Position numbers and translations under genes: made by a program. Below the pieces are notes generated by a model, which saw nothing but the letters and a program-made list of their open reading frames with translations, did no database searches and was not told the DNA's origin. Positions 1,976 through 51,757 of a stretch of 64,000 nt of DNA are shown here, one piece after another (positions within the stretch are counted from its first letter, which is position 1; the number at the start of each line of letters is the position of its first letter). Origin of the DNA: Squalus acanthias (lineage: Eukaryota); the NCBI GenBank assembly GCA_030390025.1, contig CM059432.1, positions 30,878,001-30,942,000 of the forward strand, in the 5' to 3' direction.

Positions 1976-2492
1976 TGATGTATCGTAACTGCAGAAACTT
2001 TTATAGGGGTCAACAGCCCAGGTTCCCGGCAGGTGGTGTAAATGTTGATTCGTAGCACCCAGGATTATCAGGGTCATTTATTTTTGATATCTGGGAATGG
2101 ACAAGTTAAATGCAAAATATTACTTTAAATTAAATTCTGAGATAGAGAAAAGGGGACATGTTCAAACGGGTAAAAAGGTCAGTTTAAGATTTTCTGACTA
2201 TTAATTTAAATGGTTGGAAAATCATGCACAGAATGGACTGGACTTCCAGATATAGATTGGAGGCAAAAACCCTGCAATCGATTAAGAAACAATTATATGC
2301 AGCAATGGATCTTTCTGGATGGATGATTTAAGATGGGATGAGTGGCCTTCCTCATCTCTAAGTATCTTGTGATTTTATGGTATCAGAGATCTTCAGTGTT
2401 CATCTGGTTAAATACACACTGTAACAGAATTGAATCACACTATCTATGAAGCACCCGATTTGATTTAATATTACAATTTCAGCCTGGAGTTA

Positions 2493-2630
2493 GGGGTAAT
2501 TTTCCATCTTCAGAGCTCTGAGAGCTGACCGCCCGCCTATTGTAAATTGAAAATCAGGTGAGTTTTACAAGGTGTGCGCAATCCGGTCTGTCAGATTACC
2601 TCCCGATCAGTGAAGAAGAAAATTTACCCC
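2493..2630. mobile_element. Short PIF/Harbinger (Tourist-like) MITE
   Basis: TIRs GGGGTAATTTT / AAATTTACCCC; exact TTA target-site duplication at 2490-2492 and 2631-2633. Confidence 0.85.
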
Positions 2631-3110: not shown

Positions 3111-3670
3111 ACATAAGAACATAAGAAATAGGAGCAGGAGTAGGCCATTTGGCCTCTCGAGCCTGCTCCGCCATTCAATAAGATCATGGCTGATCATCAA
3201 CCTCAACTCCACTTTCCTGCATTATCTCCATATCCCTTGATTCCCTTAACATCCAAAAATCTATCAGTCTCTGTCTTGAATATACTCAACAACTGAGCCT
3301 CCACAGCCCTCTGGGGTAGAGAATTCCAAAGATTCACAACCCTTTGAGTGAAGAAATTTCTCGTCATCTCAGTCCTGAATGGCCAACCCCTTATTCTGAG
3401 ACCGTGAGCCCTGGTTCTAGACTCCGCAGCCAAGGGAAACATCCTCCCTGCATCTACCCTGTCAAGTTCTGTAAGAATTTTGTATGTTTCAATGAGATCA
3501 CCTCTCATTCTTCTAAACTCTAGAGAATATGTGCCCAGTCTACTCAATCTCTCCTTACAGGACAATCCCCCCATCCCAGGAATCAGTCTGGTGAACCTTC
3601 GTTGCACTCCCTCTATGGCAAGTATATCCTTCCTTAGGTAAGGAGACCACAACTGTACACAATACTCCAA
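3111..3670 (-). mobile_element. CR1 LINE #1, 3' piece (end of ORF2 plus tail)
   Basis: LEYCVQLWSPYLRKD...NFFTQRVVNLWNSLP in ORF 3203..3724; ACATAAGA tandem tail at 3111; ends abruptly at the A1 TIR. Confidence 0.95.
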
Positions 3671-4028
3671 GGGGTAGAAATTAGGTCGCGCCCCATTTGA
3701 AGCGCAAATATCGTCCGGACGCAAATATTAGCGCCTGGCGCTAATTATCGGCACTGACAGGAAACTTCACTTTTACCGCCCCGGGAGGTGAGTGGAGCGC
3801 TAAAGTAGGCGCTGCACACCTCGCTTAAGGCGCAAAGGCCAAGGAGTGAGGCGCTAACTCAGCGCACGAGCGCAGCGCAGCTGCTGCCAGTTAGCGAGGG
3901 AACACAGACACAATGGCGCCAGACACTTCTTAAAGCGGGGGGGGGCCACTTGCTCCCCAGCCACACCCTGCTCATTGCAGCCTTGAATCTCAGCCTGGAG
4001 AGACCTGTAATCCATTTTGCTGCCAAGC

Positions 4029-5906
4029 ATGGAGAGGGTGAGAGAACGCGCTCATCGCTTCACCGAGCGGGCCTTGGATGCTCTGGTTGACGCAGTGGAG
4101 CGCAGACGATGCATGCTGTTCCCGGAGAGTGGCAGGAGGCCTTTGCCACGCGAGTTCAGAAGAGTGTGGAGGGAGGTGGCTCAGAGCGTCTCCTCCAGGA
4201 GCATGGTGCCCAGGACCCAAGTTCAATGCCGCAAAAAGTTCAACGACCTCACTCGGGTCGTCAGGGTGAGTGGCTTTTTCTCAATACCTCTCCATCCCTC
4301 CATCTCAACCTCACTCTATGGCCAGATGGTCTTAAAACCCCAATGCACAACACTCATCCAACACCTATGGCCCTTTCATCAAACACACACACACATTCCA
4401 CACTTTGCATACAGTAAGGGCTATTCACCTATGGGAGGCACATCAGGCAAGACCATGGCTGCATACAGTAAGGGCTATTCACCTATGGGAGGCACATCAG
4501 GCAAGACCATGGCTGCATACAGTAAGGGCTATTCACCTATGGGAGGCACATCAGGCAAGACCATGGCTGTATATTTACTCAGATGCTGTCCTTTTTCTTG
4601 CAGGCTAAGCTGGCTCATAATCGGAGACAGCAGCAACGGACGGGTGGAGGGCGGCTTCAGCTGCAACCCCTCAGCGATCTGGAGGAGCGCGTCCACAGGA
4701 TTGTGGCAAGCCGGGTGATCGGTCCCGTCGCCACTGGAGACGCCGACCCCGTTGTGGACAGCAATGGTAAGGTCATCACCTTTTTGTCCTCTGTCCTTCC
4801 ACTTGTCCCTCACAATACCAGCCTTTGACACTTTCAATCCAACTTGCTAACTCGCTGCACTTATTCCTCCCTTACTGCCACCCTGTCCTCACGCTAAAGC
4901 CACTCTTGTACCTCCCTGCTTTCAGATGGTGATTCACCAGCTGAGGAGACGGGCCCTGAAGCTGCCACTGGGAGTGATGCTGCAGCTGAGGAGGAAGAGG
5001 AAGCCGGAGCATCAGTGCCACCCTCTCCCGAGGAAGCCCATGCCCACACTGGGAACACGCCTTCCCCGGAGGGGAGCAGGGGGGAAGGGGCTGATGATGG
5101 TGAAGCTCCAGGACCCAGCGGGCTGCAGCAACGCCATGGGGGGGGGTAGGGAAGAACAGGGGCCTTCTCCCCAGAGGGAGAGTATGCCAGACACTCCTAC
5201 TGCAATGGACGCAGAGGAGGAGCGGCTGATTGCAGAAATGAACACCCAGGCGGTGGGCATGCACACTGAGCTCATGGGTGCAGTGGGAAGGGTGCCCGAT
5301 TGCATTGAGTCACTGGCAAGGAGTGTGGAGCACTTCGCTGTAGCACAGGCGGATGCCACACTAACGCTTAGTGCTGCAATTCAGTCAATGGCTGCCGTGA
5401 TCCCACCTCTGACTGCTCTCATACAGACTCAGATGGAGGCCACGCGAGCACAGACTGCTGCCAACCTCGATGGTTCGTGCACATGTCCCCGGGGCTGTCA
5501 CCGCGCCGCAGCAGGCCAGCAATCTGTTCTCCGGCAAATTGCTCCGGATGCTGAAGTGCTGCCCCGTGGGAGTGCCAGTGTGTCGGGCGAGCAGGGAGTT
5601 GCTGGCCTCTCTCACGATGACAGCATTCCTGCTGCCAACACTGTCACTTCTCCACTGCACTCGCCACCGCCTGTAGGACAGACTGCTGCCGCCCATGCAG
5701 AGTTGGTGCAGTCTGCAGCCGGGCCCTCCAGGCCCAGAAGTGGTCGAGGCCGTCCTTCAGGGGCATCTGCAGTGTCAGGGTCTGACGAGCAGCAGCCTTC
5801 CACCAGCCTTGCTGCAGCCACTGAGGTCCCATTACGGAGGAGCAGTAGGGTTAGAAGGGGGGAAGTGCGCAAGGGAAGGAGATCACCCTCGAAGGGCAAA
5901 AAGTAG
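4029..5906 (+). pseudogene. Harbinger Myb/SANT-like DNA-binding gene, 3 exons (4029-4265, 4604-4766, 4926-5906), with an apparent +1 frameshift in a G run near 5140
   Basis: MERVRERAHRFTERALDALV..VWREVA..QCRKKFNDL..AKLAHNRRQQQRTGGG. GT-AG sites conserved in A2 and B. CAT+G9+TAG gives a stop here, whereas A2 has G8 and stays in frame; could be a homopolymer error. Confidence 0.85.
4406..4567 (+). repeat. 54-bp minisatellite x3 in intron 1 of the Myb-like gene
   Basis: TGCATACAGTAAGGGCTATTCACCTATGGGAGGCACATCAGGCAAGACCATGGC x3; also x3 in A2 (16059-16220) and two diverged units in B (~9401-9510). Confidence 0.95.
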
Positions 5907-6200
5907 GAGGTGTGCCAAAATGCTGGTCATTTTTTTATTAAAGGCCGAGGTTCATGGTCCAACTTTTGTTTAGTGTTTTGGACATTATCTCCAGGTTGTG
6001 AGAACCAGTTATGTTATTGACTGTTTTTTTGTGTTTATTTCTATGAGTTTGTCATGAGGAATTGACACACACAGAGTTTGTAAAATAAATAAGTTTCTGT
6101 ATTCAAAATATACATGGCTGGTGGTTGGAATTATTGGTGCCTTGGCCGGCTTAGGGGTTGCGTGCTGGGTTGATTAGTGTTTGTAGCAATGGCAGGGGCC

Positions 6201-7361
6201 CTAGAAGCGGCTTGCTATTAGTCGTTGACGGACGGCCCTTGCAGTTTGACCATTGTGGGCCGCCCTCCTGCCTTGGTGCTGCTGATGATCATCGTCCTCG
6301 TCCTGTTCCTCCTCTTCCTCCTCCTCCTCTGGTGGTGCTACAAGGCCTGGTGGCATTGGCTGGGTCCTGAGGATTGCCATGTTGTGCAACATGCAGCACA
6401 CGACTACGAAGTTCGAAACTTGCTCAGGCGAGTACTGCAGGGCTCCTCCGGAATGGTCCAGACAGCGGAACCGTTGTTTCAGCATGCCGATTGTGCGCTC
6501 AATAATGTTCCTGGTTGCTTGATGGCTTTCATTGTACCGCAGCTCAGCAGGGGTGTTTGGCGTACGGAGCGGTGTCATCAGCCAGGTGCTCAATGCGTAC
6601 CCCTTGTCCCCCAGAAGCCAACCAACTGGCTGATGCGGTGCCTCGAAAACTTCTGCCACAGTAGTCTGGCGCAGGATGAAAGCATCGTGGCAGCTGCCCG
6701 GATAGTGGGCATTGACAGCGAGTATCACCTGTCTGTGGTCACAGACCAACTGCACATTCAAGGAATGGAACCCCTTTCTGTTCCTGAATTCCTCTGCATT
6801 CTCTCGCGGAGCACGCAAAGCCACATGCGTGCAGTCAATGGCGCCCTGCACCATGGGGAAGCCCGCTACCCTCGCAAAGCCCAGAGCACGGTCACGCTGC
6901 TTGTCTGGGGTCATAGGGAAAGAGATGAAGTCTCGTCTCCTTCTGAAGAGGGCATTGGTGACCTGCCGGATGCAGCGATGCACCGCAAACTGGGAGATAT
7001 TGGCGAGGTCCCCAACAGCAGCTTGGAATGAGCCAGTGGCGTAGAAGTTCAAAGCCACTGTGACCTTCACTGCCACCGACAGAGACGTCCTGGACCTCAG
7101 CTGAGGCTGCAGATCTGGCTGCAGCAGGTGGCAGAGCTCAGTAACCACCTCCTTGCTGAATCGCAGTCTTCGCAAACACAGCTCCTCGGACATATGGATG
7201 TAGGAGAGCTGTTCACGATATACCCTGGGAGGGTAAGCTCTCCTGTACATGCGCCTGATGGCCCTCCTCCGTCTGGCCATCATTGCCACTCTCTGTCTGC
7301 GTCTCAGTATCCTCCGATTCAGCTGGAGCAGGACGACGCCCCCAATCATTGCAGCCCCCAT
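6201..7361 (-). CDS. PIF/Harbinger DDE transposase (HARBI1-like), 386 aa, intronless
   Basis: Uninterrupted ORF with GAIDCTH, RKGFHSLNVQLVCD, PGSCHDAFIL, LLGDKGY, RNIIERTIG-LKQRFRCL, CCMLHN motifs and an acidic tail. Confidence 0.97.
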   Translation of the reverse strand: MGAAMIGGVVLLQLNRRILRRRQRVAMMARRRRAIRRMYRRAYPPRVYREQLSYIHMSEELCLRRLRFSKEVVTELCHLLQPDLQPQLRSRTSLSVAVKVTVALNFYATGSFQAAVGDLANISQFAVHRCIRQVTNALFRRRRDFISFPMTPDKQRDRALGFARVAGFPMVQGAIDCTHVALRAPRENAEEFRNRKGFHSLNVQLVCDHRQVILAVNAHYPGSCHDAFILRQTTVAEVFEAPHQPVGWLLGDKGYALSTWLMTPLRTPNTPAELRYNESHQATRNIIERTIGMLKQRFRCLDHSGGALQYSPEQVSNFVVVCCMLHNMAILRTQPMPPGLVAPPEEEEEEEEQDEDDDHQQHQGRRAAHNGQTARAVRQRLIASRF

Positions 7362-7873
7362 ATTCTCTTTGCCAGAAAAGTAATGAGGTACAGCAACTAA
7401 AGTAGCAACAAAGTTAGGATGAACTAGGCAAAACTACCTCACAAAGCGTTGAGTCAATGTAGAAGTCTCTCTCTCTCTCTCTCCGAATCTCTCTCTCTCT
7501 CTCAGAACGAGTGGTGCATAAATGTCGACCACAGAAAAAGACAGGAAGAGGCCCCCTTTAAATAGCGCCCCCCCCAGCCCCACACCGATTGATAACGTTC
7601 CAGTCTTCCGGTCGTTGGAAGCGCCAGGCGGTAAGGCAGGGGGCGCCACTCAATTTCCGCTCCGGGGCGCCCCAAGGGCGTTGCACCATGGAATGACGTC
7701 ACAATCTGCGCGCGCAGGTGGTCGCAGCGGTAAGTTTTAGCGCCGCCGCACAATCTCAAGTTAAGTTCTCGAGCGGCGCAAACAGCGCTGCGCCCGGGCG
7801 TTAGCGGCTTAACGCCCCATTAGCGCCCTCTTAAGGCGCTAACGGGAGGCGCAACCAAGTGAATTTTTACCCC

Positions 7874-8661
7874 TAAATATTTAAGGATATTTGACTTTTA
7901 GAAGAGACAGCCAGAATGGGAAAGGAGGAGGGGTAGCCCTGATAATAAAGGAGGGAATAAAGACAGTAGAAAGAAAAGATCTTGGCTCGGAAAAACAAAA
8001 TGTAGAATCAGTTTGGGTGGAGCTAAGAAACAACAAGGGGCAGAAAACACTAGTGGGAGTAATCTATAGGCCCCTTAACAGTGGTTGTAGTGTCGGGCAG
8101 AGTATAAATCAGGAAATTAGAGATGCATGTAACAAGGGTAATACAGTAATCATGTGGGGACTTTAGCTTTCATATAGACTGGGCAAACCAAATTTGCAGA
8201 AATAGTGCAGCAGAAGAGTTCATGGAATGCATTCAAGATAGTTTTCTAAATCAGTATGTCAAGGGACCTAAGAGGGAATTGGTTATTTTAGATCTAGTAC
8301 TGTGCAATGAGACAGGGTTAATTAATAACCTTGTAGTAAAGGAGCCTCTGGGGAGCAGTGATCATAATATGATAGAATATTATGTTGAGTTTGAGAGTGA
8401 TTTAGTTAAGTCTGAAACTAGGGTCCTAAACCTGAACAAAACAAATTACGTAGGTATGAGAGACAAGTTGGCTAAGGTGGGTTTGGAAACTAGATTAAAA
8501 GATATGACAGTAGAAAAGCAATGCCAAACATTTAAAGAAATAATTCATAATTCGCAACAAATATACATTCCCTTAAGGAATAAAAACACCACGGGAAAAA
8601 TGGTCCAACCATGGCTAACAAGAGAAATTAAAGATAGTATTAGATTAAAGGAAGAGGCTCA
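7874..8661 (+). mobile_element. CR1 LINE #1, middle piece 1 (endonuclease region), inverted relative to the outer pieces
   Basis: GYLTFRRDSQNGKGGGVALIIK, VGVIYRP, ILDLVL, LGSSDHNMI. Confidence 0.93.
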
Positions 8662-9022
8662 GGAGGAGAAATTCGGTATTGTCCCGTTTGGGGTGCAATT
8701 ATCGGCTGGGCGCAAAGTTTAGCGCCTGGCGCTAATTATCGCCTCTGACTGCAAACTTGGCCTCTATCACCCCTGGAGGTGATTTGAGCGCTAACTCGGG
8801 CGCTACACACCTGTCTTAAGGCGCTAACGCCAAGGCACAAGGCGCTACCTCACAGCGCTGGCGAAGCTCAGGTGATGTCAATTCGCTATGGAACACAGAC
8901 AGACTGGCGCCAGCCAGTTCTTAAAGGGGAGGGTCGATCTTGCTCTCCATCCACACCCTGCTCACTGCAGCCTTGAATCTCGGCCTGGACAGACCTGTAC
9001 ATCAATTCTGCTGGAACCAACA

Positions 9023-10855
9023 ATGGAGAGGCCCAGAGAAAGAGCTCAGCGCTTCAACGACCAGGCCTTGGTGGCTCTGGTTGGCACTGTGGAGCGGCGA
9101 AGGGCAGTACTCTACCCACAGAGTGGCAGGAGGCCATTGCCACGCAAATACAGAAGAGTCTGGAGGGTGGTGGCTCAGCACGACTCCTCCAGGAGCCTGG
9201 TACCCAGGACCCACACCCAATGTCGGAAGAAGTTCAATGACCTCAGTCGGGTGGTGAGGGTGAGTGGCTGCTTTTCAATACCTCTACATCCCTCCATCTC
9301 AACTTCACTCTGTGCCCAGAGGGTTTAAAAACTCCAAATGCCCAACACTCATCCAAGACCTATGGCAATCTCATAAAACACACTCGCGCATTCCACACCT
9401 TGCATACATTAAGGGCTATTCAACTATGGGAGGCACATCAGGCAAGCACATGGCTGCATACAATTAGGGCTATTCAACTATGGAAGGCACATCAGGCAAG
9501 CACATGGCTGCACATTCACTCAGACGCCATCCTTTTTTTGCAGGCCAAGCTGTCTCATAACAAGCGCCAGCAGCAACGCATGGGAGGAGGACCGGCTGAC
9601 CTACACACCCTCAGCGATTTGGAGGCGGCGTGCACAGGATCGTTGCCAGCCAGGTGATAGGTGCCGTGGCCGCTGGAGAGGTCGACCCCCTTGGGGACAG
9701 CAGTGGTATGTTCATCAGCTTTCTCTCCTCTCTCATTCCACTTGCCCCTCACAACACCAGCCTTTTACACTTTCAATCCAACTTACTAAATGTCTCCAGT
9801 CCTTCCTCCCTTACTGCCCCCCTGTCCTGACGCTAAAGCCACTCTTGTACCTCTCTGCTTTCAGATAGTGAACCACCAGCTGACGAGCCTGTCCCTCAAC
9901 TAACCAGTGGCAGTGACGCCCCAGGTGAGGAGGAGGAGGAAGAGGAAGCCGGAGCCTCACCGCCTGCGTCTCCCGAGGGAGCCCATGCCCACACTGGGAC
10001 CATGCCTTCCATGGAGGGGAGCGGGTGGAAGGGTCTGATGAGGATGAAGCTCCGGGACCCAGTGGGCTGCAGCAACGCCATGGGGGTAGGGAAGCTCGGG
10101 GGCCATCTCCCCGGAGGGAGAGTAGGCAAGCGAGTCCTGCTGCACTGGACGCAGAGGAGGAGTGCGTCATCGCGGAAATGAATAGCCAGGCCTTGAGCAT
10201 GCACACTGAGCTCATGGGTGCAATGGCAAGAGTGCCTGAAAGCATTGATGCACTGGCAAGGAGTGTGGAGCACTCTGCTGCAGCACAGGCTAATGCAACG
10301 CAACAGCTTAGTGCTGCAATTCAGTCACTGGCTGCTGCCTTCCAGTCTCAGACTGCTCTCATGCAGTCTCAGATTGATGTCAAGCAAGCACTGACTGCTG
10401 CCATCGTCGCTGGGTCGACCACATTGCCCCGGGGCTCTCACGGTGCTGCAGCAGGCCAGCAATCTGTGCTCGAGCAGATTGCTCCGGATGCTGAGGTACT
10501 GCCCTGTGGGAGTGCCAGTGTGTTGGTCGAGCAGGAAGCTGCTGTCCTCTCTCAGGATGACAGCATTCCAGCTCCCACCACTGGCACTTCCCCATTGCAC
10601 TTGCCACCGCCTGCAACACAGCCAGCCCAGACTGCTGTCGCCCATGCAGAGTTGGTGCAGTCTGCAGCCGGGGCCTCCAAGCCCAGAGCTGGTCGAGGGC
10701 GTCCTTCAAGGGTATCTGTAGTCTCTGCATCTGACATTCAGCAGCCTTCCACCAGCCTTGCTGCAGCCACTGGGGTCCCATTACGGAGGAGCAGTAAGGT
10801 GGGAAGGGGGGAACTGCACAGGGGATGGAGATCACCATCGAAGGGCAAACAGTAG
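9023..10855 (+). pseudogene. Myb/SANT-like gene of element B, 3 exons, frameshift in exon 2
   Basis: MERPRERAQRFNDQALVALV..QCRKKFNDL; donor after 9259, acceptor before 9544; 1-bp loss near 9628; ORF 10025..10855 matches exon 3 of A. Confidence 0.9.
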
Positions 10856-11152
10856 GAGGTCTAAATAAATGGTGGGAATGTTTGTAGTAAAGGTCGAGGT
10901 TCGTGTGATTACATTTGTTTACTGTTTTGTTGTTTATCTCCAGCTTGTGAGAACAAGTTCCGTTAATTCATGATTTATTGTGTTTGTTTCAATTTGTTTG
11001 TCCTGAATAAATGACACACACAGAGTTTGTTAAAGAAAAAAGTTGTATTCTAAATTTATATTTTTGGCCTTTGGAATCATTCCAGCTTTGGCCGGCAATA
11101 GCGGGTGCGGGTTGCTTTCCATGATGTTGTTCTCCATACCAGAAGCCATCTT

Positions 11153-12293
11153 ACATAAGAACATAAGAAATAGGAGCAGGAGTAGGCCATTCGGCCCTTC
11201 GAGCCTGCTCCGCCATTCAATGAGATCATGGCTGATCTTCTGCCTCAATTCCATTCACCGGCCCTATCGCCATATTCCTTGATGCCCTTACTAGTCAGAA
11301 ATCTATCGACTTCTGTTTTGAATATACCCAATGACTGAGCCTCCACAGCCCTCTGGGGTAGAGAATTCCAAAGATTCACCACCCTCTGTGTGAAGAAATT
11401 TCTTCTCATCTCAGTCCTGAATGGCCTACCCTTTATCCTGAGGCTGTGACCCCTGGTTCTAGACTCCCCAGCCAAGGGAAACATTCTCCCAGCATCCACC
11501 TTATCAAGCCCTGTAATAATTTTGTATGCTTCAATGAGATCCCCTCTCATTCTTCTGAATTCAAGAGAATACAGGCCTAGTTTACTCAATCTCTTCTTAT
11601 ATGACAGTCCCGCCATTCCAGGAATCAATCTCGTGAACCTTCATTGCACTCCCTCTATGGCAAGTATATCCTTCCTTAGGTAAGGAGACCAAAATTGTAC
11701 ACAGTACTCCAGGTGTAGTCTCACCAAGGCCCTATATAATTGGAGTAAGACTTCTTTACTCCTGTACTCAAATCCTCTTGTAATGAAGGCCAGCATACCA
11801 TTTGCCTTCCTAATGGCTTGCTGCACCTGCACATTCACTTTCAGTGACTCATGTACAAGAACACCCAGGTCTCTTTGAGCATCTGCATTCCCCAATCTTT
11901 CACCATTTAGGAAATACTCTGCCTTTCTGTTTTTTCTACCAACGTGGATAACTTCACATTTATCCACATTATATTCCATCTGCCATGTTCTCGCCCACTC
12001 ACTGAGCCTGTCGAGATCCCCTTGAAGCCTCTTCGCATCAGCTTCGCAACTGACACTTTTACAATCCTTTTTTATATTTTTCGCTAGATTGTGCTCATAT
12101 TCCATTTTCCTTTTCTTTATCAATTTCTTGGTCCTCCTTTGCTGCTTTCTAAAAAGATCCCAATCCTCAGGCTGACTGCTTTTTCTGGCAACTTTATAAG
12201 CTTCCTCCTTTGACTGAATACTAGCTTTAATTTCTTTTGTTAGACATGGTTGGATCACTTTTCCTTTTGGGTTTTTATGTCCTAGAGGAATAA
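11153..12293 (-). mobile_element. 5'-truncated, internally deleted CR1 inserted between the two genes of element B
   Basis: ACATAAGA tail at 11153; ORFs 11245..11628 and 11641..12258; KDCKS is fused to VSCEADAKRL at ~12053, so the RT core is missing. Confidence 0.92.
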
Positions 12294-12310
12294 ATGTTCT
12301 GAGTAGGGGC

Positions 12311-13466
12311 CTAGAAGTGGCTTGTTATCAGCCATTGACGGACGGCCCTTGCAGTGGCAACAATGTGCGCCTCCCTCCCACATTGGTGCTGCTGCTGATC
12401 ATCCTCCTCATCCTCCTCCTCCTCTTCCTCCTCCTCTTTCTCAGGTGGTGCACCAATCCCTGGTGGCATTGGCTGGGTCCTCAAGATTGCCAGGTTGTGA
12501 AGCATGCAGCACACAACTATGAAGAGGGAGACTCGCTCAGGCGAGTACTGCAGGGCTCCTCCTGAGTGGTCCAGAGAGCGGAACTGTTGCTTGAGCACGC
12601 CGATCGTCTGCTCAATGATGTTCCTGGTGGCGATATGGCTCTCATTATGCCGCAGCTCGGCAGGGGTGTTGGGGTTACGGAGGGTGTCATCAGCCAGGTG
12701 CAGAGACCCTTGTCCACGAGGAGCCATCCACTTGGAGCATGCGGTGCCTGGAAAAGGTCTGGCACACCAGTCTGGCGCAGGATGAAAGCATCGTGGCTGC
12801 TGCCAGGATAGCGGGCATTGACGGCGAGTATGAGCTGTCTGTGGTCACAGACCAACTGCACATTTAAGGAGTGGTAGCCCTTGCGGTTTCGGAATACCTC
12901 TGCATTTTCATGCGGTGCCCTCAATGCCACATGTGTTCAGTCAATGGCACCCTGCACCATAGGGAAGCCCGCTATCCTAGCAAAGCCACATGCGCGTTCA
13001 TGCTGTTTAGCCCGGGTCATGGGGAAAGAGATGTACTGGCGTCTCCTTTTATACGGGGCATTTGTCACCTCCCGGATACAACAATGGACAGCGAACTGGA
13101 AGATATTGGTGATCTCCCCAGTAGATGATTTAAAGGAGCCGCTGGCATAAAAATTCAGAGCCACTGTCACCTTCACTGCCACCGACAGAGACATCCTGGT
13201 CCTCAGTTGAGGCTGCAGATCTGGTTGCAGCAGGTGGCAGAGCTCAGTGTCCACCTCCTTGCTGAAGCGCAGCCTGCGCAAACACTGCTCCTCAGACAAA
13301 TGAATGTAGGAAAATTGCTCCCAGAATACCCTGGGAGAGTAAGGTCTCCTGTGCAGAGGCCTGTTCACCCTCCTCCCTCTGGCCATGTTTGCCACTCTCT
13401 CTCTGTGTCTCTGCTGCCTCCGATTCTGCAGGTACAGGACGACGCCCGAATCAGTGCAGCCCCCAT
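12311..13466 (-). pseudogene. Harbinger transposase of element B (stop and frameshifts)
   Basis: Split across ORFs 12937..13488, 12517..12930 and 12311..12727; stop directly after GAID. Confidence 0.93.
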
Positions 13467-13955
13467 AGTCTCTTCTAAATTGATGCAAGGAAGGTCAAAT
13501 CAAACTGAACATGCTAAGCGCTGCTCAGTACCCAAAGCTCCTTCACAAAGCGTTGAATCTCTCCAGAAGTCTCTCTCTCCCTCTCAGAATGCGTGGTGCA
13601 AAAATGTCGCCGACAAAAAAAGGCAGGAAGCGGCCGCCTTTAAATAATACTCCCCCAACCCCTTCCCGACTGCAAAACGCTCCCTTCTACCTGTCGTTGT
13701 TAGCGGCAGGCGGAAAGGCAGGGGGCACCACTCAATATCCGGTCCGGGGCACTACCGGGGTGTTGCACGCTCAACTGACATCACGATCTGCGGGTGCAGA
13801 AGATTGTGGCGGTAGTGTTTAGCGCCGCCGCAAAATGTCTGGTCAATTTCGCGAGCGGCGCAAACATCACCGAGCCCGGGAGCAAGTTGCTTTGCGCCCC
13901 ATTAGTGCCCTCTTAAGGCACTAACGGGAGGCGCTAATCAACCGAATGTTTCCCC

Positions 13956-15324
13956 TTATAATTTTGCCAAAAGAGTAGTAAACTTCAGGATTGGGAGGAT
14001 TTTAGAATTCAGCAAAGGAGGACCAAGAAATTGATAAAGAAAGGGAAAATAGAATATGAAAGTAAACTAGCGAGAGACATAAAAACAGACTGTAAAAGCT
14101 TATATTGGTATGTAAAATGGAAAAGATTAGCAAAAGTAAACATGGGTCCCTTACAGGCTGAGACAGGAGAAATTATAATGGGGAATAAGGAAATCGCAGA
14201 GAAATTAAATAAATACTTTGTGTCTGTCTTCACGGAAGAAGACACAAAAAACCTCCTGGAAATAGTGGAGAACCAAGGGTCTAGCGAGAATGAGGAACTG
14301 AAAGAATTAGTATTAGTAAAAAAAAGTACTGGAGAAATTAATGGGACTGAAAGCCAATAAATCCCCTGGCCCTGATGGGCTACATCCTAGGGTTATAAAA
14401 GAGGTGGCTATATAGATCGTGGAAGCATTGGTTATCATCTTCCAAAATTCCATAGAGTCTAGAACGGTTCCTGTGGAATGGAAGGCAGCAAATGTAACCC
14501 CACTATTTAAGAAAGGAGGGAGAGAGAAAACGGGGAACTACAGACCAGTTAGCCTGACATCAATAGTAGGGAAAATGCTAGAATCTATTATTAAGGATGT
14601 GATAACAGGGCACTTAGAAAATAATAATAGGATTGGGCAGAGTCAGCACGGATTTATGAAAGGGAAATCATGTTTGACGAATTTGTTAGAGTTTTTTGAG
14701 TTTGCAACTAGCAGAATAGATAAGGGGGAACCAGTGGATGTGGTGTATTTGGATTTTCAGAAGGCATTCGATAAGGTGCCACACAAGAGCTTATTGAACA
14801 AAATTAGAGCTCATGGGATTGGGGGTAATATACTAGCATGGATTGAGGATTGGTTAACGGACAGAAAACAGAGAGTAGGAATAAACGGGTCATATTCTGT
14901 TTGGCAGGCTGTAACGAGTGGAGTACCGCAAGGATCAGTGTTTGGGCATCAGCTATTCACAATCTATATCAATGATTTGGATGAGGGGACCAAATGTAAC
15001 ATATCCAAGTTTGCTGATGATACAAAGCTAGGTGGGAATGTAAGTTGTGAGGAGGATGCAAAGAGGCTTCAAGGGGATATAGACAGGCTAAGTGAGTGGT
15101 CAAGTACATGGCAAATGGAATATAATGTGGAGAAATGCGAAGTTATCCACTTTTGTAGGAAAAATAGTAAAGCAGAATATTTTTTAAATGGTGAGAGATT
15201 GGGAAATGTTGGTCTTCAGAGGAACCTGGGTGTCTTTGTACATGAATCACTGAAAGTTAACATGCAGGTACAGCAAGCAATTAGGAAAGCAAATGGCATG
15301 TTGGCCTTTATTACAAGAGTAAAG
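13956..15324 (+). mobile_element. CR1 LINE #1, middle piece 2 (reverse transcriptase)
   Basis: ORF 14419..15411 with NYRPVSLTS, QHGFMKGKSCLTNL, YLDFQKAFDKVPH, SGVPQGS, KFADDTK; stops at the A2 TIR. Confidence 0.96.
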
Positions 15325-15681
15325 GGGGTAGAAATTAGGTCGCGCCCCATTTGGGGCGCAAATATCGTCCGGACGCAAATATTAGCGCCTGGCGCTAATT
15401 ATCGGCACTGACAGGAAACTTCACTTTTACCGCCCCGGGAGGTGAGTGGAGCGCTAAAGTAGGCGCTGCACACCTCTTTTAAGGCGCAAAGGCCAAGGAG
15501 TGAGGCGCTAACTCAGCGCACGAGCGCAACGCAGCTGCTGCCAGTTAGCGAGGGAACACAGACACAATGGCGCCGGACACTTCTTAAAGCGGGGGGGGCC
15601 ACTTGCTCCCCAGCCACACCCTGCTCATTGCAGCCTTGAATCTCAGCCTGGAGAGACCTGTAATCCATTTTGCTGCCAAGC

Positions 15682-17558
15682 ATGGAGAGGGTGAGAGAAC
15701 GCGCTCATCGCTTCACCGAGCGGGCCTTGGATGCTCTGGTTGACGCAGTGGAGCGCAGACGATGCATGCTGTTCCCGGAGAGTGGCAGGAGGCCTTTGCC
15801 ACGCGAGTTCAGAAGAGTGTGGAGGGAGGTGGCTCAGAGCGTCTCCTCCAGGAGCATGGTGCCCAGGACCCATGTTCAATGCCGCAAAAAGTTCAACGAC
15901 CTCACTCGGGTCGTCAGGGTGAGTGGCTTTTTCTCAATACCTCTCCATCCCTCCATCTCAACCTCACTCTATGGCCAGAGGGTCTTAAAACCCCAATGCA
16001 CAACACTCATCCAACACCTATGGCACTTTCATCAAACACACACACACATTCCACACTTTGCATACAGTAAGGGCTATTCATCTATGGGAGGCACATCAGG
16101 CAAGACCATGGCTGCATACAGTAAGGGCTATTCACCTATGGGAGGCACATCAGGCAAGACCATGGCTGCATACAGTAAGGGCTATTCACCTATGGGAGGC
16201 ACATCAGGCAAGACCATGGCTGTATATTTACTCAGATGCTGTCCTTTTTCTTGCAGGCTAAGCTGGCTCATAATCGGAGACAGCAGCAATGGACGGGTGG
16301 AGGGCGGCTTCAGCTGCAACCCCTCAGCGATCTGGAGGAGCGCGTCCACAGGATTGTGGCAAGCCGGGTGATCGGTCCCGTCGCCACTGGAGACGCCGAC
16401 CCCGTTGTGGACAGCAATGGTAAGGTCATCACCTTTTTGTCCTCTGTCCTTCCACTTGTCCCTCACAATACCAGCCTTTGACACTTTCAATCCAACTTGC
16501 TAACTCGCTGCACTTATTCCTCCCTTACTGCCACCCTGTCCTCACGCTAAAGCCACTCTTGTACCTCCCTGCTTTCAGATGGTGATTCACCAGCTGAGGA
16601 GACGGGCCCTGAAGCTGCCACTGGGAGTGATGCTGCAGCTGAGGAGGAAGAGGAAGCCGGAGCATCAGTGCCACCCTCTCCCGAGGAAGCCCATGCCCAC
16701 ACTGGGAACACGCCTTCCCCGGAGGGGAGCAGGGGGGAAGGGGCTGATGATGGTGAAGCTCCAGGACCCAGCGGGCTGCAGCAACGCCATGGGGGGGGTA
16801 GGGAAGAACGGGGGCCTTCTCCCCAGAGGGAGAGTATGCCAGACACTCCTACTGCAATGGACGCAGAGGAGGAGCGGCTGATTGCAGAAATGAACACCCA
16901 GGCGGTGGGCATGCACACTGAGCTCATGGGTGCAGTGGGAAGGGTGCCCGATTGCATTGAGTCACTGGCAAGGAGTGTGGAGCACTTCGCTGTAGCACAG
17001 GCGGATGCCACACTAACGCTTAGTGCTGCAATTCAGTCAATGGCTGCCGTGATCCCACCTCTGACTGCTCTCATACAGACTCAGATGGAGGCCACGCGAG
17101 CACAGACTGCTGCCAACCTCGATGGTTCGTGCACATGTCCCCGGGGCTGTCACCGCGCCGCAGCAGGCCAGCAATCTGTTCTCCGGCAAATTGCTCCGGA
17201 TGCTGAAGTGCTGCCCCGTGGGAGTGCCAGTGTGTCGGGCGAGCAGGGAGTTGCTGGCCTCTCTCACGATGACAGCATTCCTGCTGCCAACACTGTCACT
17301 TCTCCACTGCACTCGCCACCGCCTGTAGGACAGACTGCTGCCGCCCATGCAGAGTTGGTGCAGTCTGCAGCCGGGCCCTCCAGGCCCAGAAGTGGTCGAG
17401 GCCGTCCTTCAGGGGCATCTGCAGTGTCAGGGTCTGACGAGCAGCAGCCTTCCACCAGCCTTGCTGCAGCCACTGAGGTCCCATTATGGAGGAGCAGTAG
17501 GGTTAGAAGGGGGGAAGTGCGCAAGGGAAGGAGATCACCCTCGAAGGGCAAAAAGTAG
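15682..17558 (+). CDS. Harbinger Myb/SANT-like DNA-binding protein, predicted 459 aa, exons 15682-15918, 16257-16419, 16579-17558
   Basis: 237+163+980 = 1380 nt open frame; donors GTGAGT and GTAAGG, acceptors TTGCAG and TTTCAG; N-terminal Myb/SANT-like domain, acidic linker, helical region, basic tail. Confidence 0.9.
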
Positions 17559-17852
17559 GAGGTGTGCCAAAATGCTGGTCATTTTTTTATTAAAGGCCGA
17601 GGTTCATGGTCCAACTTTTGTTTAGTGTTTTGGACATTATCTCCAGGTTGTGAGAACCAGTTATGTTATTGACTGTTTTTTTGTGTTTATTTCTATGAGT
17701 TTGTCATGAGGAATTGACACACACAGAGTTTGTAAAATAAATAAGTTTCTGTATTCAAAATATACATGGCTGGTGGTTGGAATTATTGGTGCCTTGGCCG
17801 GCTTAGGGGTTGCGTGCTGGTTTGATTAGTGTTTGTAGCAATGGCAGGGGCC

Positions 17853-19013
17853 CTAGAAGCGGCTTGCTATTAGTCGTTGACGGACGACCCTTGCAGTTTG
17901 ACCATTGTGGGCCGCCCTCCTGCCTTGGTGCTGCTGATGATCATCGTCCTCGTCCTGTTCCTCCTCTTCCTCCTCCTCCTCTGGTGGTGCTACAAGGCCT
18001 GGTGGCATTGGCTGGGTCCTGAGGATTGCCATGTTGTGCAACATGCAGCACACGACTACGAAGTTCGAAACTTGCTCAGGCGAGTACTGCAGGGCTCCTC
18101 CGGAATGGTCCAGACAGCGGAACCGTTGTTTCAGCACGCCGATTGTGCGCTCAATAATGTTCCTGGTTGCTTGATGGCTTTCATTGTACCGCAGCTCAGC
18201 AGGGGTGTTTGGCGTACGGAGCGGTGTCATCAGCCAGGTGCTCAATGCGTACCCCTTGTCCCCCAGAAGCCAACCAACTGGCTGATGCGGTGCCTCGAAA
18301 ACTTCTGCCACAGTAGTCTGGCGCAGGATGAAAGCATCGTGGCAGCTGCCCGGATAGTGGGCATTGACAGCGAGTATCACCTGTCTGTGGTCACAGACCA
18401 ACTGCACATTCAAGGAATGGAACCCCTTTCTGTTCCTGAATTCCTCTGCATTCTCTCGCGGAGCACGCAAAGCCACATGCGTGCAGTCAATGGCGCCCTG
18501 CACCATGGGGAAGCCCGCTACCCTCGCAAAGCCCAGAGCACGGTCACGCTGCTTGTCTGGGGTCATAGGGAAAGAGATGAAGTCTCGTCTCCTTCTGAAG
18601 AGGGCATTGGTGACCTGCCGGATGCAGCGATGCACCGCAAACTGGGAGATATTGGCGAGGTCCCCAACAGCAGCTTGGAATGAGCCAGTGGCGTAGAAGT
18701 TCAAAGCCACTGTGACCTTCACTGCCACCGACAGAGACGTCCTGGACCTCAGCTGAGGCTGCAGATCTGGCTGCAGCAGGTGGCAGAGCTCAGTGACCAC
18801 CTCCTTGCTGAATCGCAGCCTTCGCAAACACAGCTCCTCGGACATATGGATGTAGGAGAGCTGTTCACGATATACCCTGGGAGGGTAAGCTCTCCTGTAC
18901 ATGCGCCTGATGGCCCTCCTCCGTCTGGCCATCATTGCCACTCTCTGTCTGCGTCTCAGTATCCTCCGATTCAGCTGGAGCAGGACGACGCCCCCAATCA
19001 TTGCAGCCCCCAT
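17853..19013 (-). CDS. PIF/Harbinger DDE transposase, 386 aa
   Basis: Intact ORF with all catalytic motifs; differs from the A1 protein at two residues (M/V, A/V). Confidence 0.97.
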   Translation of the reverse strand: MGAAMIGGVVLLQLNRRILRRRQRVAMMARRRRAIRRMYRRAYPPRVYREQLSYIHMSEELCLRRLRFSKEVVTELCHLLQPDLQPQLRSRTSLSVAVKVTVALNFYATGSFQAAVGDLANISQFAVHRCIRQVTNALFRRRRDFISFPMTPDKQRDRALGFARVAGFPMVQGAIDCTHVALRAPRENAEEFRNRKGFHSLNVQLVCDHRQVILAVNAHYPGSCHDAFILRQTTVAEVFEAPHQPVGWLLGDKGYALSTWLMTPLRTPNTPAELRYNESHQATRNIIERTIGVLKQRFRCLDHSGGALQYSPEQVSNFVVVCCMLHNMAILRTQPMPPGLVAPPEEEEEEEEQDEDDDHQQHQGRRAAHNGQTARVVRQRLIASRF

Positions 19014-19523
19014 ATTCTCTTTGCCAGAAAAGTAATGAGGTACAGCAACTAAAGTAGCAACAAAGTTAGGATGAACTAGGCAAAACTACCTCACAAAGCG
19101 TTGAGTCAATGTAGAAGTCTCTCTCTCTCTCTCTCCGAATCTCTCTCTCTCTCAGAACGAGTGGTGCATAAATGTCGACCACAGAAAAAGACAGGAAGAG
19201 GCCCCCTTTAAATAGCGCCCCCCCCAGCCCCACACCGATTGATAACGTTCCAGTCTTCCGGTCGTTGGAAGCGCCAGGCGGTAAGGCAGGGGGCGCCACT
19301 CAATTTCCGCTCCGGGGCGCCCCAAGGGCGTTGCACCATGGAATGACGTCACAATCTGCGCGCGCAGGTGGTCGCAGCGGTAAGTTTTAGCGCCGCCGCA
19401 CAATCTCAAGTTAAGTTCTCGAGCGGCGCAAACAGCGCTGCGCCCGGGCGTTAGCGGCTTAACGCCCCATTAGCGCCCTCTTAAGGCGCTAACGGGAGGC
19501 GCAACCAAGTGAATTTTTACCCC

Positions 19524-19625
19524 TCAGTTCTTAACCTTGGTCACTCTGCAACCACATCTCTGCAATGGCTATTAAATCAAACCCATTTATTGCTATCTGC
19601 GCTATTAATTCATCTATTTTGTTTT
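19524..19625 (-). mobile_element. CR1 LINE #1, 5' piece (start of endonuclease)
   Basis: Reverse complement translates NKIDELIAQIAINGFDLIAIAEMWLQSDQG*EL and continues directly into 7874 (+). Confidence 0.88.
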
Positions 19626-19847
19626 CTTTCTCGTGTGGTTATTCAAGCATCAGGGTTCCACTTGATTAATCAGTATCTTCATTACATTGGCCCGATAGAA
19701 AATGTTAGCCCATCATGAAGACACTCCCAGCAATTACTGCCAGACTTCAGTGTCTGCAGCCAGAGATGTTCTCTGGCACTCTGCTGGTCTTACATTCCCA
19801 ATAATTTCAATACTTGAATATCCACCAAGCTAAGCAATCACTTTTAA

Positions 19848-20027
19848 AGGGTAGTTTTCCAACTTTCTCAACAGAGAACCTCGCCCGCTGAGACCGTGTG
19901 TCACTGGCTGCATGATTTTCCGACTATTAATTTAAATTGTGGGAAAATCATGCACAGCGTGCACCTGAAAGTGTGCTCTCAGTGGGTGAGGTTTCCCACC
20001 GATATTGCAAAGCCAGAAGATGACCCC
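19848..20027. mobile_element. Palindromic Harbinger-type MITE
   Basis: Ends GGGTAGTTTTC / GAAGATGACCCC; internal arms TGCATGATTTTCC / GGAAAATCATGCA; a related core fragment lies at ~2188-2232. Confidence 0.65.
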
Positions 20028-20145
20028 TTTACTGCATTCAATAGTATTGGTATTGGAGGTTTGCCAGGCAAAAAAAAAAGGGACACAGGAGCATTGATTG
20101 TTAGCAGGCCTAGTCTCTCCAAGTCAAACAGTTTACAAGCTTAGA

Positions 20146-20480
20146 TGGTGCAGTAGGTTAGCTCACTGCCCCTTTCACCTCAGTGTATTGGGGCTGAATC
20201 CAGCCCAGAATGAAGGGATGAATGCAAGGGTTTTACATGAAATGAGTTTGAGCAGCAATTAAAGCAAATTAGCTTTCGACATGAACTCACTAAACTGGCA
20301 TCAACTGGCTCAAAAGTGACACGTCATTTAGCAAGGTCATAAGGGTGGCTGGTGTATTTCGCAACAAATTGGCAATGGTACTACAGAGACAACTTCTTTG
20401 AAGTTGTGGTTAAGGCACATTTTTGGAATAGAGTAAAAAGAACTTTGATCTATAATTGTCTGCGCTATACCTTGACCAGT
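20146..20480 (+). mobile_element. LF-SINE-like tRNA-derived SINE, decayed
   Basis: Ordered motifs CCTTTCACCTC, GAATCCAGCCCAG, TGAAATGAGTT, AACTGGCA, GGTTAAGGCACATT, GCTATACCT match the LF-SINE consensus as recalled. Confidence 0.55.
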
Positions 20481-22947: not shown

Positions 22948-23371
22948 ACTCAGTGATAGCACTCTCACCTTTAAATCAGAAGGTTGTGATGTCAAGCTAT
23001 ACTCTTCAATTTGAGCACATTATCTAGGCTGGCACTTCACTGCACTGATGAGAGAGTGATGCATAGTCAGACATGCTGTCTTTCAGATGAGATATTAAAC
23101 AGAGTCCCTGTTTGCCTGGTCAAGTAAAAGATCCCATGAAGAAGAGTAGGGAGTTCTGCCGGTGTCCTGGGCAACATTTATCCCTGAACCAACAACACTA
23201 AAACAGATTATCTGGTCATTATCTCATTACTATTTGTGGGAACTTGCTGTGCGCAAATTGGCTGCCTTGATTCCTTCATCACAACAGTGCCTGCATTTCA
23301 AAAGTACTTAATTGGCTGGCTATCACTTTGGGTCGCCCTGAGGTCATGAAAGGTGCTGTATAAATGCAGGT
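22948..23371 (+). mobile_element. Deu-domain SINE with its tail split by an RTE insertion
   Basis: tRNA-like head CTCAGTGATAGCACTCTCACC, core GATGAGATATTAAAC..GTAAAAGATCCCATG; tail resumes at 24650. Confidence 0.88.
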
Positions 23372-24649
23372 GAGGGATTATGGAGTGTCCTCCTCAAATT
23401 CGGCTGCCCTCAAAAGTATGTCACCATCCTCCACAACAACATGCAAGCTGTGATCCTGACCAACGGATCCACCACAGACCCAATTCACGTACGGACCGGG
23501 GTCAAGCAAGGCTGTGTCATCGCACCAACGCTCTTCTCGATCTTCCTGGCTGCAATGCTCCATCTCACCCTCAGTAAGCTCCCTGCTGGAGTGGAGCTAA
23601 TCTACAGAACAAACGGGAAACTGTTCAACCTCCATCGCCTCCAGTCCAGATCCAAGGTAATCTCATCCTCTGTTATCAAATTACTGCGCACACTCTGAGG
23701 TCGAACTTCTAACAATCATCAACACCTTCACTGAAGCATATGAGAGCATGGGCCTTACACTAAACATCCGTAAGACAAAGGTCCTCTACCAACCTGCCCC
23801 CGCCACACAGTACTGTTCCCCGATTATCAAAATCCATGACGAGGCCTTGGACAACGGGGACCACTTTCCATACCTCGGGAGCCTACTGTCAACAAGGGCA
23901 GATGTCGACAACGAAGTCCAACACCGCCTTCAGTGTGCCAGTGCAGCCTTCGGTCGCCTGAAGAAGAGTGTTTGAAGACCAGGACGTCAAACCCAGCACC
24001 AAGCTCATGGTCTACAGAGCAGTAGTGATACCCGCCCTCCTGTATGCTTCAGAGACATGGACCATGTACAGCAGGCACCTCAAAGCATTGAAGATGTACC
24101 ACCAACGCTGCCTCCACAAGATTCTGCAAATCCATTGGCAGGATAGGTGTACCAACATCAGTGTTCTCGCTCAGGCCAACATCCCCAGCATCGAAGCTTT
24201 GACCACGCTCGATCAGCTCCGATGGACGGGTCACATTGTCCGCATGCCCGATGCGAGACTCCCAAAACAAGCGCGTTACCCGGAGCTCTGGCACGGCAAG
24301 AGAGCCCCAGGTGGGCAGAGGAAATGCTTCAAGGACACCCTCAAAGCCTCCTTGAAAAAGTGCAACATCCCCACCGACACATGGGAATCCCTGGCCCAAG
24401 ACCGCACAAAGTGGAGGAGAAGCATCCGGGAAGGCGCCGAACACCTCGAGTCTCTTCACCGGGAGCAAGTGGAAGCCAAGCGCAAGGAGCGCACGTCAAC
24501 CCAAGCACCCCACCCACCCGCCCCTTCAACCACCGTCTGCTCCACCTGTGACAGAGACTGTAGATCCCGCATTGCACTCATCAGTCACCTGAGAACTCAT
24601 TTTTAGTGTGGAAGCAAGTCATCCTCCGTTCCGAGGGACTGCCTAAGAG
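23372..24649 (+). mobile_element. 5'-truncated RTE-clade (BovB-like) LINE
   Basis: TGVKQGCVIAPTLFSIF, FPYLGS, QLRWTGHIVRM, terminal CSTCDRDC..SH zinc finger; 12-bp TSD ATAAATGCAGGT / ATAAATGCAAGT. Confidence 0.93.
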
Positions 24650-44630: not shown

Positions 44631-44734
44631 CGAGGAGAAATGACACAAACTAGGGTTGTATTCCCTGGAATTTAGAAGGTTAAGGGTGATTTGATCGAAG
44701 TTTTCAAGATATTATGGGGAACAGATAGGGTACT

Positions 44735-51140: not shown

Positions 51141-51757
51141 TAAGTCAAAAAATAATTCTTGTGCCCTGTTCTACAAGGAACGTAAGAAAAATCAAGGCTG
51201 ACAAAAGGAAAATTGGCCCTTCGAGGCTTGTCCCTCTAGTATCTTATACTCACAGTCTAACATCCCTCAGCTCCATAGCACCCAATTTTCATGCCGTTTT
51301 GTGACGGAAATGGTGTCCGCACCATACGCATACACTTCTGGTACATGCCGCGCCAGATGCCATCTTGGTGAGGGAGGTAGGGCGGGCGTTAGGAGCGTAT
51401 GCCAGAAGTAGGTTGAGAGGGCAGATCGTGACGTCACTCAGTGTGCAACGCTGATTTGACACCAGCGCTGCCATTTTTCATCCTCAATGCTGGAGCTAAC
51501 ACCCTGTCTTAACCTCGCACAGCTGAACATGCGTTCAGAAGCAGCAAGGACCCCTCCCCAGTGATATTTAAAGGAATCAGCAACCATTCTCAGGTTAGTT
51601 GCTCATTAATTTCTACGGGCTCTGTGTAAGTTTGTGGAACTGTTTGGAGCTTTCCAGAGTTCTTTAAAGTTGGTGAGGTGACAGGGAGTGGTGCTGCAAG
51701 TGGAGAAGGCCTTGGTTCTGACATCAAGGGTTCTGGTCAGACCACTTGCTCACAGTC

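What the first reader, a model, noticed from the sequence alone, without database searches (positions are those of the whole stretch)
15325..19523. Candidate active autonomous two-component Harbinger
Seen: both TIRs, an intact 386-aa transposase and an open 3-exon, 459-aa Myb-like gene; a sister copy differs at only about 20 positions. Known: Harbinger transposition needs both proteins, and zebrafish Harbinger3_DR had to be reconstructed from a consensus. Caveat: A2 has R-to-W in the RTGGG motif (CGG to TGG near 16290) where A1 keeps R, so an A1/A2 consensus may be the true functional sequence.
Basis: partly seen in the sequence, partly recalled or inferred. Interest (0 to 1): 0.7.

Follow-up and report, generated by a model that had tools for sequence, protein, structure and literature searches.

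The report
Intact shark Harbinger flanking an inversion
This is a complete two-gene cut-and-paste jumping gene, one of thousands in a genome that is likely a shark's or ray's; it is probably an ageing passenger rather than a currently jumping copy, but together with its neighbouring twin it likely flipped the 7.5 kb of DNA between them.

Summary
Observation confirmed. A2 (15325-19523) has 12-bp TIRs, a 386-aa DDE transposase and a 3-exon 459-aa Myb gene; its twin A1 differs by 18 substitutions and 3 indels. 'Active' is not shown. The family is huge (6,672 exact transposase-motif matches) and intron 2 is spliced in 4 of 4 RNA-like runs, but the contigs carry family alleles, not A2's. Of 52 copies compared, none pairs with another closer than 10 differences, bar one likely segmental duplicate; about 0.2% private change would be over a million generations at a measured shark mutation rate. 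No consensus is needed: 18 other copies among 39 have both frames open with the arginine, and that residue is variable in homologues. A1's Myb gene is frameshifted. The 3-bp target duplication is nearly any AT-rich triplet inside a palindromic target, fitting none of the published TWA, CWG, TNA or ANT rules. And A1 and A2 lack their own duplications because the 7.45 kb between them is inverted inside one CR1, with both right ends on one duplicated target, a structure like a Tn10 deletion-inversion. The scan noted this family elsewhere in this genome, and this inversion, before.

The parts
15325..19523 (+). Element A2, full-length two-gene Harbinger, both frames open
15325..15336 (+). Left TIR, 12 bp
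19512..19523 (-). Right TIR, 12 bp, one mismatch to the left TIR
15337..15600 (.). Left subterminal region with repeated GGCGC/GCGCC motifs, predicted Myb-protein binding sites (inferred)
   Evidence: 11 GGCGC in 550 bp of the two ends against 2 in 3,649 bp of the interior
19250..19511 (.). Right subterminal region with the same motifs (binding inferred)
15682..15918 (+). Myb gene exon 1 (Myb/SANT domain)
   Evidence: Pfam PF13873
15919..16256 (+). Intron 1 (predicted), holding a 54-bp tandem repeat with 1-7 copies among family members
   Evidence: GT in 39 of 39 and AG in 38 of 39 copies; spacing matches 11 of 11 motif-matched homologues; spliced joint not listed in RNA-like runs
16257..16419 (+). 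Myb gene exon 2 with the TGGG motif; R91W at 16290
16420..16578 (+). Intron 2, spliced form seen for the family
   Evidence: GT..AG joint skipping 159 nt in 4 of 4 RNA-like runs from 2 studies; read through unspliced in DNA contigs of X8 and X9
16579..17558 (+). Myb gene exon 3; G run at 16791-16798 is the commonest frameshift site in the family
17853..19013 (-). Transposase gene, 386 aa; acidic residues D176, D226, D252 and E288 present; one change from the family majority (A376V)
3671..7873 (+). Sister element A1; transposase open, Myb gene frameshifted as assembled
7874..15324 (+). Segment inverted relative to its flanks: the middle part of one CR1 LINE, with an older Harbinger (B) nested in it
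7874..7876 (+). First copy of the 3-bp target duplication (TAA), against A1's right end
   Evidence: an independent clean TAA/TAA insertion at the same CR1 position in L090
19524..19526 (-). Second copy of the duplication (reads TGA on the minus strand, one mismatch), against A2's right end
19524..19623 (-). 5' remainder of the broken CR1
   Evidence: abuts 7874 in 13 of 14 related CR1 loci
3111..3670 (-). 3' remainder of the broken CR1; begins 41 bp downstream of where the inverted segment ends
8662..13955 (+). Older decayed relative B (transposase about 70-73% identical to A2), TSD TCA/TTA, itself holding CR1 insertions

Best explanation
A2 is a full-length two-gene Harbinger DNA transposon with both reading frames open, from the youngest subfamily seen of a very large, likely shark family, and it is probably an ageing passenger of a past wave rather than the source of present-day jumping. 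How it would move (inferred from Harbinger3_DR): the spliced Myb protein binds repeated subterminal motifs and brings in the DDE transposase, which cuts at the 12-bp TIRs and pastes the element into a loose palindromic target (about ARASWC-NNN-GWSTYT), duplicating the middle three bases (target and duplication shown from copies). At this locus two copies likely inserted about 41 bp apart in one CR1 with their right ends facing; the transposase then likely paired the two right ends, dropped the spacer and joined them to a target about 7.5 kb away, inverting the DNA between. The structure is shown; the order of events is inferred.
For: Anatomy. Family size: 8,781 exact left-end 24-mers and 6,672 exact transposase 25-mers. 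Perfect 3-bp duplications in 52 of 73 full copies, confirmed by paralogous empty sites. Purifying selection between subfamilies: transposase core dN/dS 0.12, Myb codons 1-133 0.19, A against G5 majorities. Neutral decay after insertion: Myb private changes omega 1.07 in 50 copies. Age: median 7 private changes per about 3,950 bp; closest pair 10 differences apart except a likely segmental duplicate; no identical twin among 40 scored hits for the youngest-looking copy L089. Inversion: 13 of 14 related CR1 loci join the reverse complement of 19526-19623 directly to 7874 with an exact 3-bp overlap, and the 8 loci printed show 15324 and 3670 lie 41 bp apart. L090 shows this CR1 position is a real target. 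A1 and A2 share an allele found in 3 of 52 copies. The structure matches the description of Tn10 deletion-inversions (PMC2723962, passages).
Against: Private transposase changes are still short of replacements (omega 0.54, p 0.047, after leaving out two mosaic copies; 0.46 with all 52), so some 'private' changes were inherited from unsampled active sub-lineages and the ages are overestimates. Only 52 of thousands of copies were compared, 39 of them chosen by similarity to A2, and each DNA search scored only 40 candidates. Flank differences between this assembly and two other samples (1 and 3 in 705 bp) are of the same size as the copies' private change, so insertions can be young enough to be polymorphic. 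The site-2 duplication has one mismatch, though 12 of 73 copies show one-mismatch duplications. A1 is not A2's closest copy (16 differences against 14 for three others). The mutation rate comes from another shark species.
Confidence: 0.68

Rival explanations
1. A2 itself is a currently active autonomous source copy.
For: Both frames and all four splice sites are intact; the transposase is one C-terminal change from the family majority; R91 is not conserved in homologues; unchecked scan notes report empty sites for other copies in this genome.
Against: A2's alleles at 15478, 16290, 17487 and 17887 are absent from, or at most about 0.4% of, RNA-like contig depth (contigs drop rare variants and those animals may lack A2); no daughter copies carry its private changes among 52; the nearest copies differ at 13-14 sites.
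Confidence: 0.12
2. The whole family is extinct; open frames simply reflect slow shark mutation.
For: No identical pair except likely segmental duplicates; about 0.2% private change is 1.3-15 million generations over the published rate interval (PMC10587355 passages); only 19 of 39 and 4 of 13 full-length copies keep both frames.
Against: A continuous ladder of subfamilies under purifying selection; spliced transcripts in two organisms; hundreds of copies with both frames open by extrapolation; sampling is under 1% of the family.
Confidence: 0.2
3. The rearranged flanks arose by ordinary recombination between several independent insertions at preferred sites in different CR1 copies, not by like-end transposition.
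For: The CR1 position is a repeat target (L090); CR1 copies are dense; the duplication has one mismatch; 9 of 73 copies have unrelated flanks and many copies are mosaics.
Against: It needs about four insertions and two deletions that happen to rebuild one complete CR1 with an exact 3-bp overlap at one joint and only 41 bp lost at the other. One recombination between inverted copies leaves them inverted, not in direct repeat.
Confidence: 0.2
4. The inversion is an assembly artefact caused by two near-identical 4.2-kb repeats.
For: The repeats are 99.5% identical; junction-spanning reads were not seen (in one search the unique-flank contigs stop at 19596).
Against: Each of the four junctions is a base-precise element end at a plausible target half-site; swapping repeat copies cannot create two right ends on one target.
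Confidence: 0.05

Closest known systems
Harbinger3_DR of zebrafish (= NuwaI-2_DRer; Han et al. 2015, PMC4482050, section 4 and supplements read; Sinzelle et al. 2008 not held, seen only as cited in PMC3016246 and PMC9392472)
   Same: About 4.2 kb, 12-bp TIR, DDE_Tnp_4 plus Myb_DNA-bind_5, palindromic 15-bp target with similar outer arms (AAACACCWGGTCTTT), same 23-residue spacer in the DDE core; about 28 of 56 residues identical in the first core block (counted by eye against Fig. S3 text).
   Different: Duplication is any mostly AT-rich triplet (CWG 0 of 52); Myb protein 459 against 221 aa; thousands of copies against 293; native copies with both frames open exist, whereas Harbinger3_DR was reconstructed.
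NuwaII group (Han et al. 2015)
   Same: C before and G after the duplicated triplet (43 and 39 of 52); core block about 29 of 56 identical to NuwaII-4_XTro (by eye).
   Different: TNA in only 8 of 52.
Harbinger-Snek of sea kraits (PMC8437027, part 1 of 4 read)
   Same: Native, massively amplified two-gene vertebrate Harbinger with non-autonomous derivatives.
   Different: Snek arrived by horizontal transfer and covers 8-12% of the genome; here a ladder of subfamilies and shark/ray best hits point to long vertical residence, and at most about 0.75% of the genome if all 6,672 motif matches were full-length (inference).
Tn10 deletion-inversion (PMC2723962, passages)
   Same: Spacer between two inverted elements lost, one element plus adjacent DNA inverted, elements end up as direct repeats.
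   Different: Bacterial composite transposon; here two whole eukaryotic elements with unlike left and right subterminal regions, and the event is inferred from sequence only.
Shark and ray proteins annotated 'putative nuclease HARBI1'
   Same: Best hits, up to 66% identical, mostly cartilaginous fish.
   Different: No hit above 66% among the 120 listed; several aligned hits lack the acidic residue at E288 that A2 keeps. A2 is a mobile element, not the domesticated HARBI1 gene.

Membership tests
Harbinger superfamily, broad sense | DDE_Tnp_4 transposase | tested here: met
Harbinger superfamily, broad sense | Second gene with a Myb/SANT domain | tested here: met
Harbinger superfamily, broad sense | Short TIRs | tested here: met
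   12 bp, one mismatch
Harbinger superfamily, broad sense | 3-bp target-site duplication | tested here: met
   Family: 52 of 73 perfect, paralogous empty sites agree. A2 itself has none of its own because of the inversion.
PIF/Harbinger group (Han et al. 2015) | TWA duplication | tested here: not met
   7 of 52
NuwaI group (includes Harbinger3_DR) | CWG duplication | tested here: not met
   0 of 52
NuwaII group | C|TNA|G target | tested here: not met
   flanking C 43 and G 39 of 52, but TNA only 8 of 52
Pangu group | ANT duplication and no Myb domain | tested here: not met
   ANT 5 of 52; Myb domain present
Nuwa clade by transposase phylogeny | DDE domain groups with NuwaI/NuwaII | tested here: inconclusive
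   Only compared by eye with Fig. S3 text; no tree with reference sequences was built
Currently active autonomous element | Both frames and splice sites intact | tested here: met
Currently active autonomous element | Identical or near-identical daughter copies at unrelated sites | tested here: not met
   none among 52 copies or among 40 scored hits for L089; small sample
Currently active autonomous element | Copy-specific spliced transcripts | tested here: inconclusive
   family-level intron 2 splicing only; A2 alleles not seen in contigs
Currently active autonomous element | Insertion polymorphism at this locus | tested here: inconclusive
   DNA contigs break in the CR1 flank at 19596
Currently active autonomous element | Excision and integration in cells | not testable with these tools
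   needs an assay
Tn10-type deletion-inversion (structure) | Direct-repeat elements, inverted middle segment, spacer lost, target duplication against two like ends | tested here: met
   the duplication has one mismatch

The most novel reading that the evidence does not exclude
Sharks carry a still-working native Harbinger with hundreds of intact two-gene copies, whose transposase reads a palindromic 15-bp target without caring about the duplicated triplet and can pair two right ends to invert chromosome segments, Tn10-style. It would be a ready-made, unreconstructed vertebrate Harbinger tool and a source of structural change in a slow-mutating lineage.
Probability: 0.3. Interest if true: 0.75.

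Novelty: new variant of a known kind. Interest (0 to 1): 0.48.

Why it matters
The vertebrate Harbinger shown to jump in cells was reconstructed (PMC3016246, passages), and a fish survey found none in elephant shark and asked for other cartilaginous fish to be checked (PMC9179366, passages). This genome offers many native copies with both genes open, so an assay needs no reconstruction. The relaxed triplet breaks the duplication-based grouping of the superfamily. The inversion gives a precise, testable claim that a Harbinger transposase can use two like ends. The case also warns that 99.5% identity between copies need not mean present activity in sharks.

Tried and rejected
No run on record as RNA was listed; four runs guessed to be RNA were used. 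The intron 1 joint was not listed in those four runs and three contigs read across its donor unspliced; contigs show presence, not absence, so this is not taken as evidence of retention. Polymorphism at this locus: contigs of X1 and X2 cover the unique flank but stop at 19596; X8 and X9 do not cover it. Looking for an empty allele on an unplaced contig: the one flank tried (L014) found only itself and 80% repeats. No solved-structure relative of the transposase (0 hits at E 0.01). A word-based search for Myb homologues found none at E 1e-12; the HMMER search found 74. A1-Q-A2 as a composite transposon: rejected, neither outer nor inner triplets match. The two closest pairs (L078/L079, 3 differences; L098/L099, 2) share flanks and lie about 32 kb apart, so they were read as a segmental duplication. 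Other copies with unmatched duplications gave no clear second inversion in 350-bp flanks against the fetched loci. L001 and L007 lacked a left end in the fetched stretch and were dropped (39 of 41 kept); 4 of 20 G5 loci and 2 of 15 long unbiased loci were incomplete and dropped. Literature: searches listed no paper whose title or abstract start describes this shark family or a Harbinger-made inversion; Repbase and Dfam could not be searched. The bioRxiv paper on C. inopinata Harbingers was seen as abstract and outline only. No fold or complex prediction was run.
Full report
What is there. A2 spans 15325-19523 and ends in a 12-bp inverted repeat with one mismatch. It encodes a 386-aa transposase on the minus strand (19013-17853; Pfam DDE_Tnp_4, E 2.5e-39) and a three-exon 459-aa protein on the plus strand whose first exon is a Myb/SANT domain. 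A1 (3671-7873) differs by 18 substitutions and 3 indels. One indel lengthens a G run in exon 3 and frameshifts A1's Myb gene as assembled. The best protein hits are shark and ray entries named 'putative nuclease HARBI1', at most 66% identical, so the host is likely a cartilaginous fish.

The gene model. Intron 2 (16420-16578) is skipped at GT..AG in all 4 RNA-like runs laid, from 2 studies and 2 organism labels. The runs are only guessed to be RNA and the short sides are 19-29 letters. As a control, DNA contigs of X8 and X9 read through the intron and the joint is not among the 15 DNA joints shown (6 not shown). The intron 1 joint was not listed, but joining exons 1 and 2 gives the same 17-residue spacing as all 11 homologues in which the motif could be matched (11 of 74), and one homologue aligns over residues 11-456. 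The residue before TGGG in those 11 is V (4), G (3), R (2), E or L, and a distant element in the window has V, so R91W is a weak caveat, though W was not seen in homologues. The RNA-like contigs carry family alleles, not A2's, at 15478, 16290, 17487 and 17887.

The family. The genome holds 8,781 exact matches to the left-end 24-mer, 6,672 to a transposase 25-mer and 2,688 to a motif of an older sister group, G5. Matching by eye, 15 of the first 54 left ends belong to long elements; the 5 others fetched were all 893-895-bp non-autonomous derivatives. Of 39 copies chosen by similarity to A2's transposase, 38 have an open transposase and 19 have both frames open; 37 have a codon other than TGG at 16290 (36 CGG, 1 CAG). 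Of 13 complete copies picked without that bias, 4 have both frames open, which extrapolates roughly to several hundred. G5 copies are about 5% from A and about 1.5% from each other, with still older groups beyond. Between the A and G5 majorities dN/dS is 0.12 in the transposase core and 0.19 in the first 133 Myb codons: a long-lived working lineage. Many copies are mosaics of subfamilies.

Is it active? Among 52 A copies the median is 7 private changes in about 3,950 bp, and the closest pair differs at 10 sites apart from one pair with shared flanks. The copy with the fewest private changes had no identical twin among 40 scored of 1,148 candidates. At the epaulette shark rate of 7e-10 per generation (interval 1.4-14.1e-10; PMC10587355, passages) the A1-A2 distance is about 3 million generations per copy (1.5-15 million). 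That is probably an overestimate: 27% of private changes are CpG transitions (91 of 337) and private transposase changes are short of replacements (omega 0.54, p 0.047, two mosaics left out). Private Myb changes are neutral (omega 1.07). The unique flank differs from two other samples at 1 and 3 of 705 sites, the same order as the copies' private change. So the wave is about as old as ordinary alleles: empty sites in other samples, which unchecked scan notes report for other copies, are compatible with this and do not by themselves show jumping today. I could not test polymorphism at this locus.

Target site. Of 73 complete copies, 52 have a perfect 3-bp duplication, 12 one mismatch and 9 unrelated triplets; paralogous empty sites confirm three bases. 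The triplets are TWA 7, CWG 0, TNA 8, ANT 5 and all-AT 38 of 52, with C before (43) and G after (39). The wider target from 30 sites is palindromic, about ARASWC-NNN-GWSTYT, resembling the outer arms of the Harbinger3_DR target (PMC3016246, passages). The element therefore meets the broad Harbinger definition but none of the triplet-defined groups of Han et al. (PMC4482050, section 4 and supplements). Its core looks closest to the Nuwa clade by eye only.

The locus. Neither A1 nor A2 has its own duplication. In 13 of 14 related CR1 loci the reverse complement of 19526-19623 runs straight into 7874, overlapping by exactly three bases that read TAA in all 13 (window: TAA and TGA); in the 8 loci printed, the CR1 positions at 15324 and 3670 are 41 bp apart. 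So 7874-15324 is the inverted middle of one CR1, both right ends sit on one duplicated target, and both left ends sit on separate target half-sites. An independent copy, L090, is inserted cleanly at the same CR1 position. The simplest history is two insertions tail to tail, then transposition using the two right ends, the structure described for Tn10 deletion-inversions (PMC2723962, passages). I recorded the inversion reading; an earlier scan note (e1-8041045) has the same reading and the Tn10 label. Against it: one mismatch in the duplication, a repeat target that makes multi-step recombination less unlikely, and no junction-spanning reads seen.

Comparison and verdict. Natural large vertebrate Harbinger expansions are known (Harbinger-Snek, PMC8437027, part 1 of 4), and Harbinger-type elements are the commonest DNA transposons in the grey reef shark annotation (PMC12498223, one passage), although they were not detected in elephant shark (PMC9179366, passages). 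The two-protein mechanism is taken from citations of Sinzelle et al. 2008 (PMC9392472, passages; primary paper not held). The relaxed target triplet and the like-end inversion are what lift it above an ordinary family member. Interest 0.48.

Noticed in passing
window 15919-16371: Intron 1 reads open in frame with exon 1 (229-aa product if retained), and RNA-like contigs cross its donor unspliced while intron 2 is spliced; possible regulated intron retention, or just pre-mRNA. Element B's intron is not open.
   Followed up: partly
window 16791-16798: A G run in Myb exon 3 varies from 5 to 12 bases among copies and is the commonest frameshift; the older G5 group has 5. Slippage or assembly error not separated.
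   Followed up: partly
L102-L106: An 893-895-bp non-autonomous family shares the left 24-mer and right end of A2; all 5 short copies fetched were of this kind.
   Followed up: partly
window 2492-2630: A 139-bp MITE-like element with GGGGTAA ends and a TTA duplication.
   Followed up: no
window 44672-46251 and 52717-54390: Two more distant Myb-like Harbinger genes (46% and 32% to A2 exon 1), without a transposase nearby except a fragment.
   Followed up: no
window 51625-52181: 155-bp inverted arms (93%) around 247 bp that include a Harbinger transposase fragment (51893-52048).
   Followed up: no
L095, L096, L097 (G000 C1, 18.91-18.94 Mb): Three A copies within 25 kb; L095 and L096 share the same left flank but have different right flanks and sequences, a possible transposon-made duplication.
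   Followed up: no
L087, L088, L097, L100: A sub-lineage with a tandem duplication of about 90 bp in Myb exon 3 (A2 16724-16814); none of the four passed the open-frame test for Myb.
   Followed up: no
runs X8, X9 laid on window 16300-20300: Two other organism labels hold contigs about 99% identical to A2 at far lower depth; close relatives or transfer could not be told apart.
   Followed up: no
L084 flanks against window 1210-1297: Both flanks of L084 match this stretch in opposite orientations; could be a palindromic repeat or a second rearrangement.
   Followed up: no
window 32816-33529 and 23342-24606: A Penelope-like GIY-YIG fragment and an RTE-like LINE fragment among many CR1/L2 pieces (labels from recall, not from a call).
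   Followed up: no
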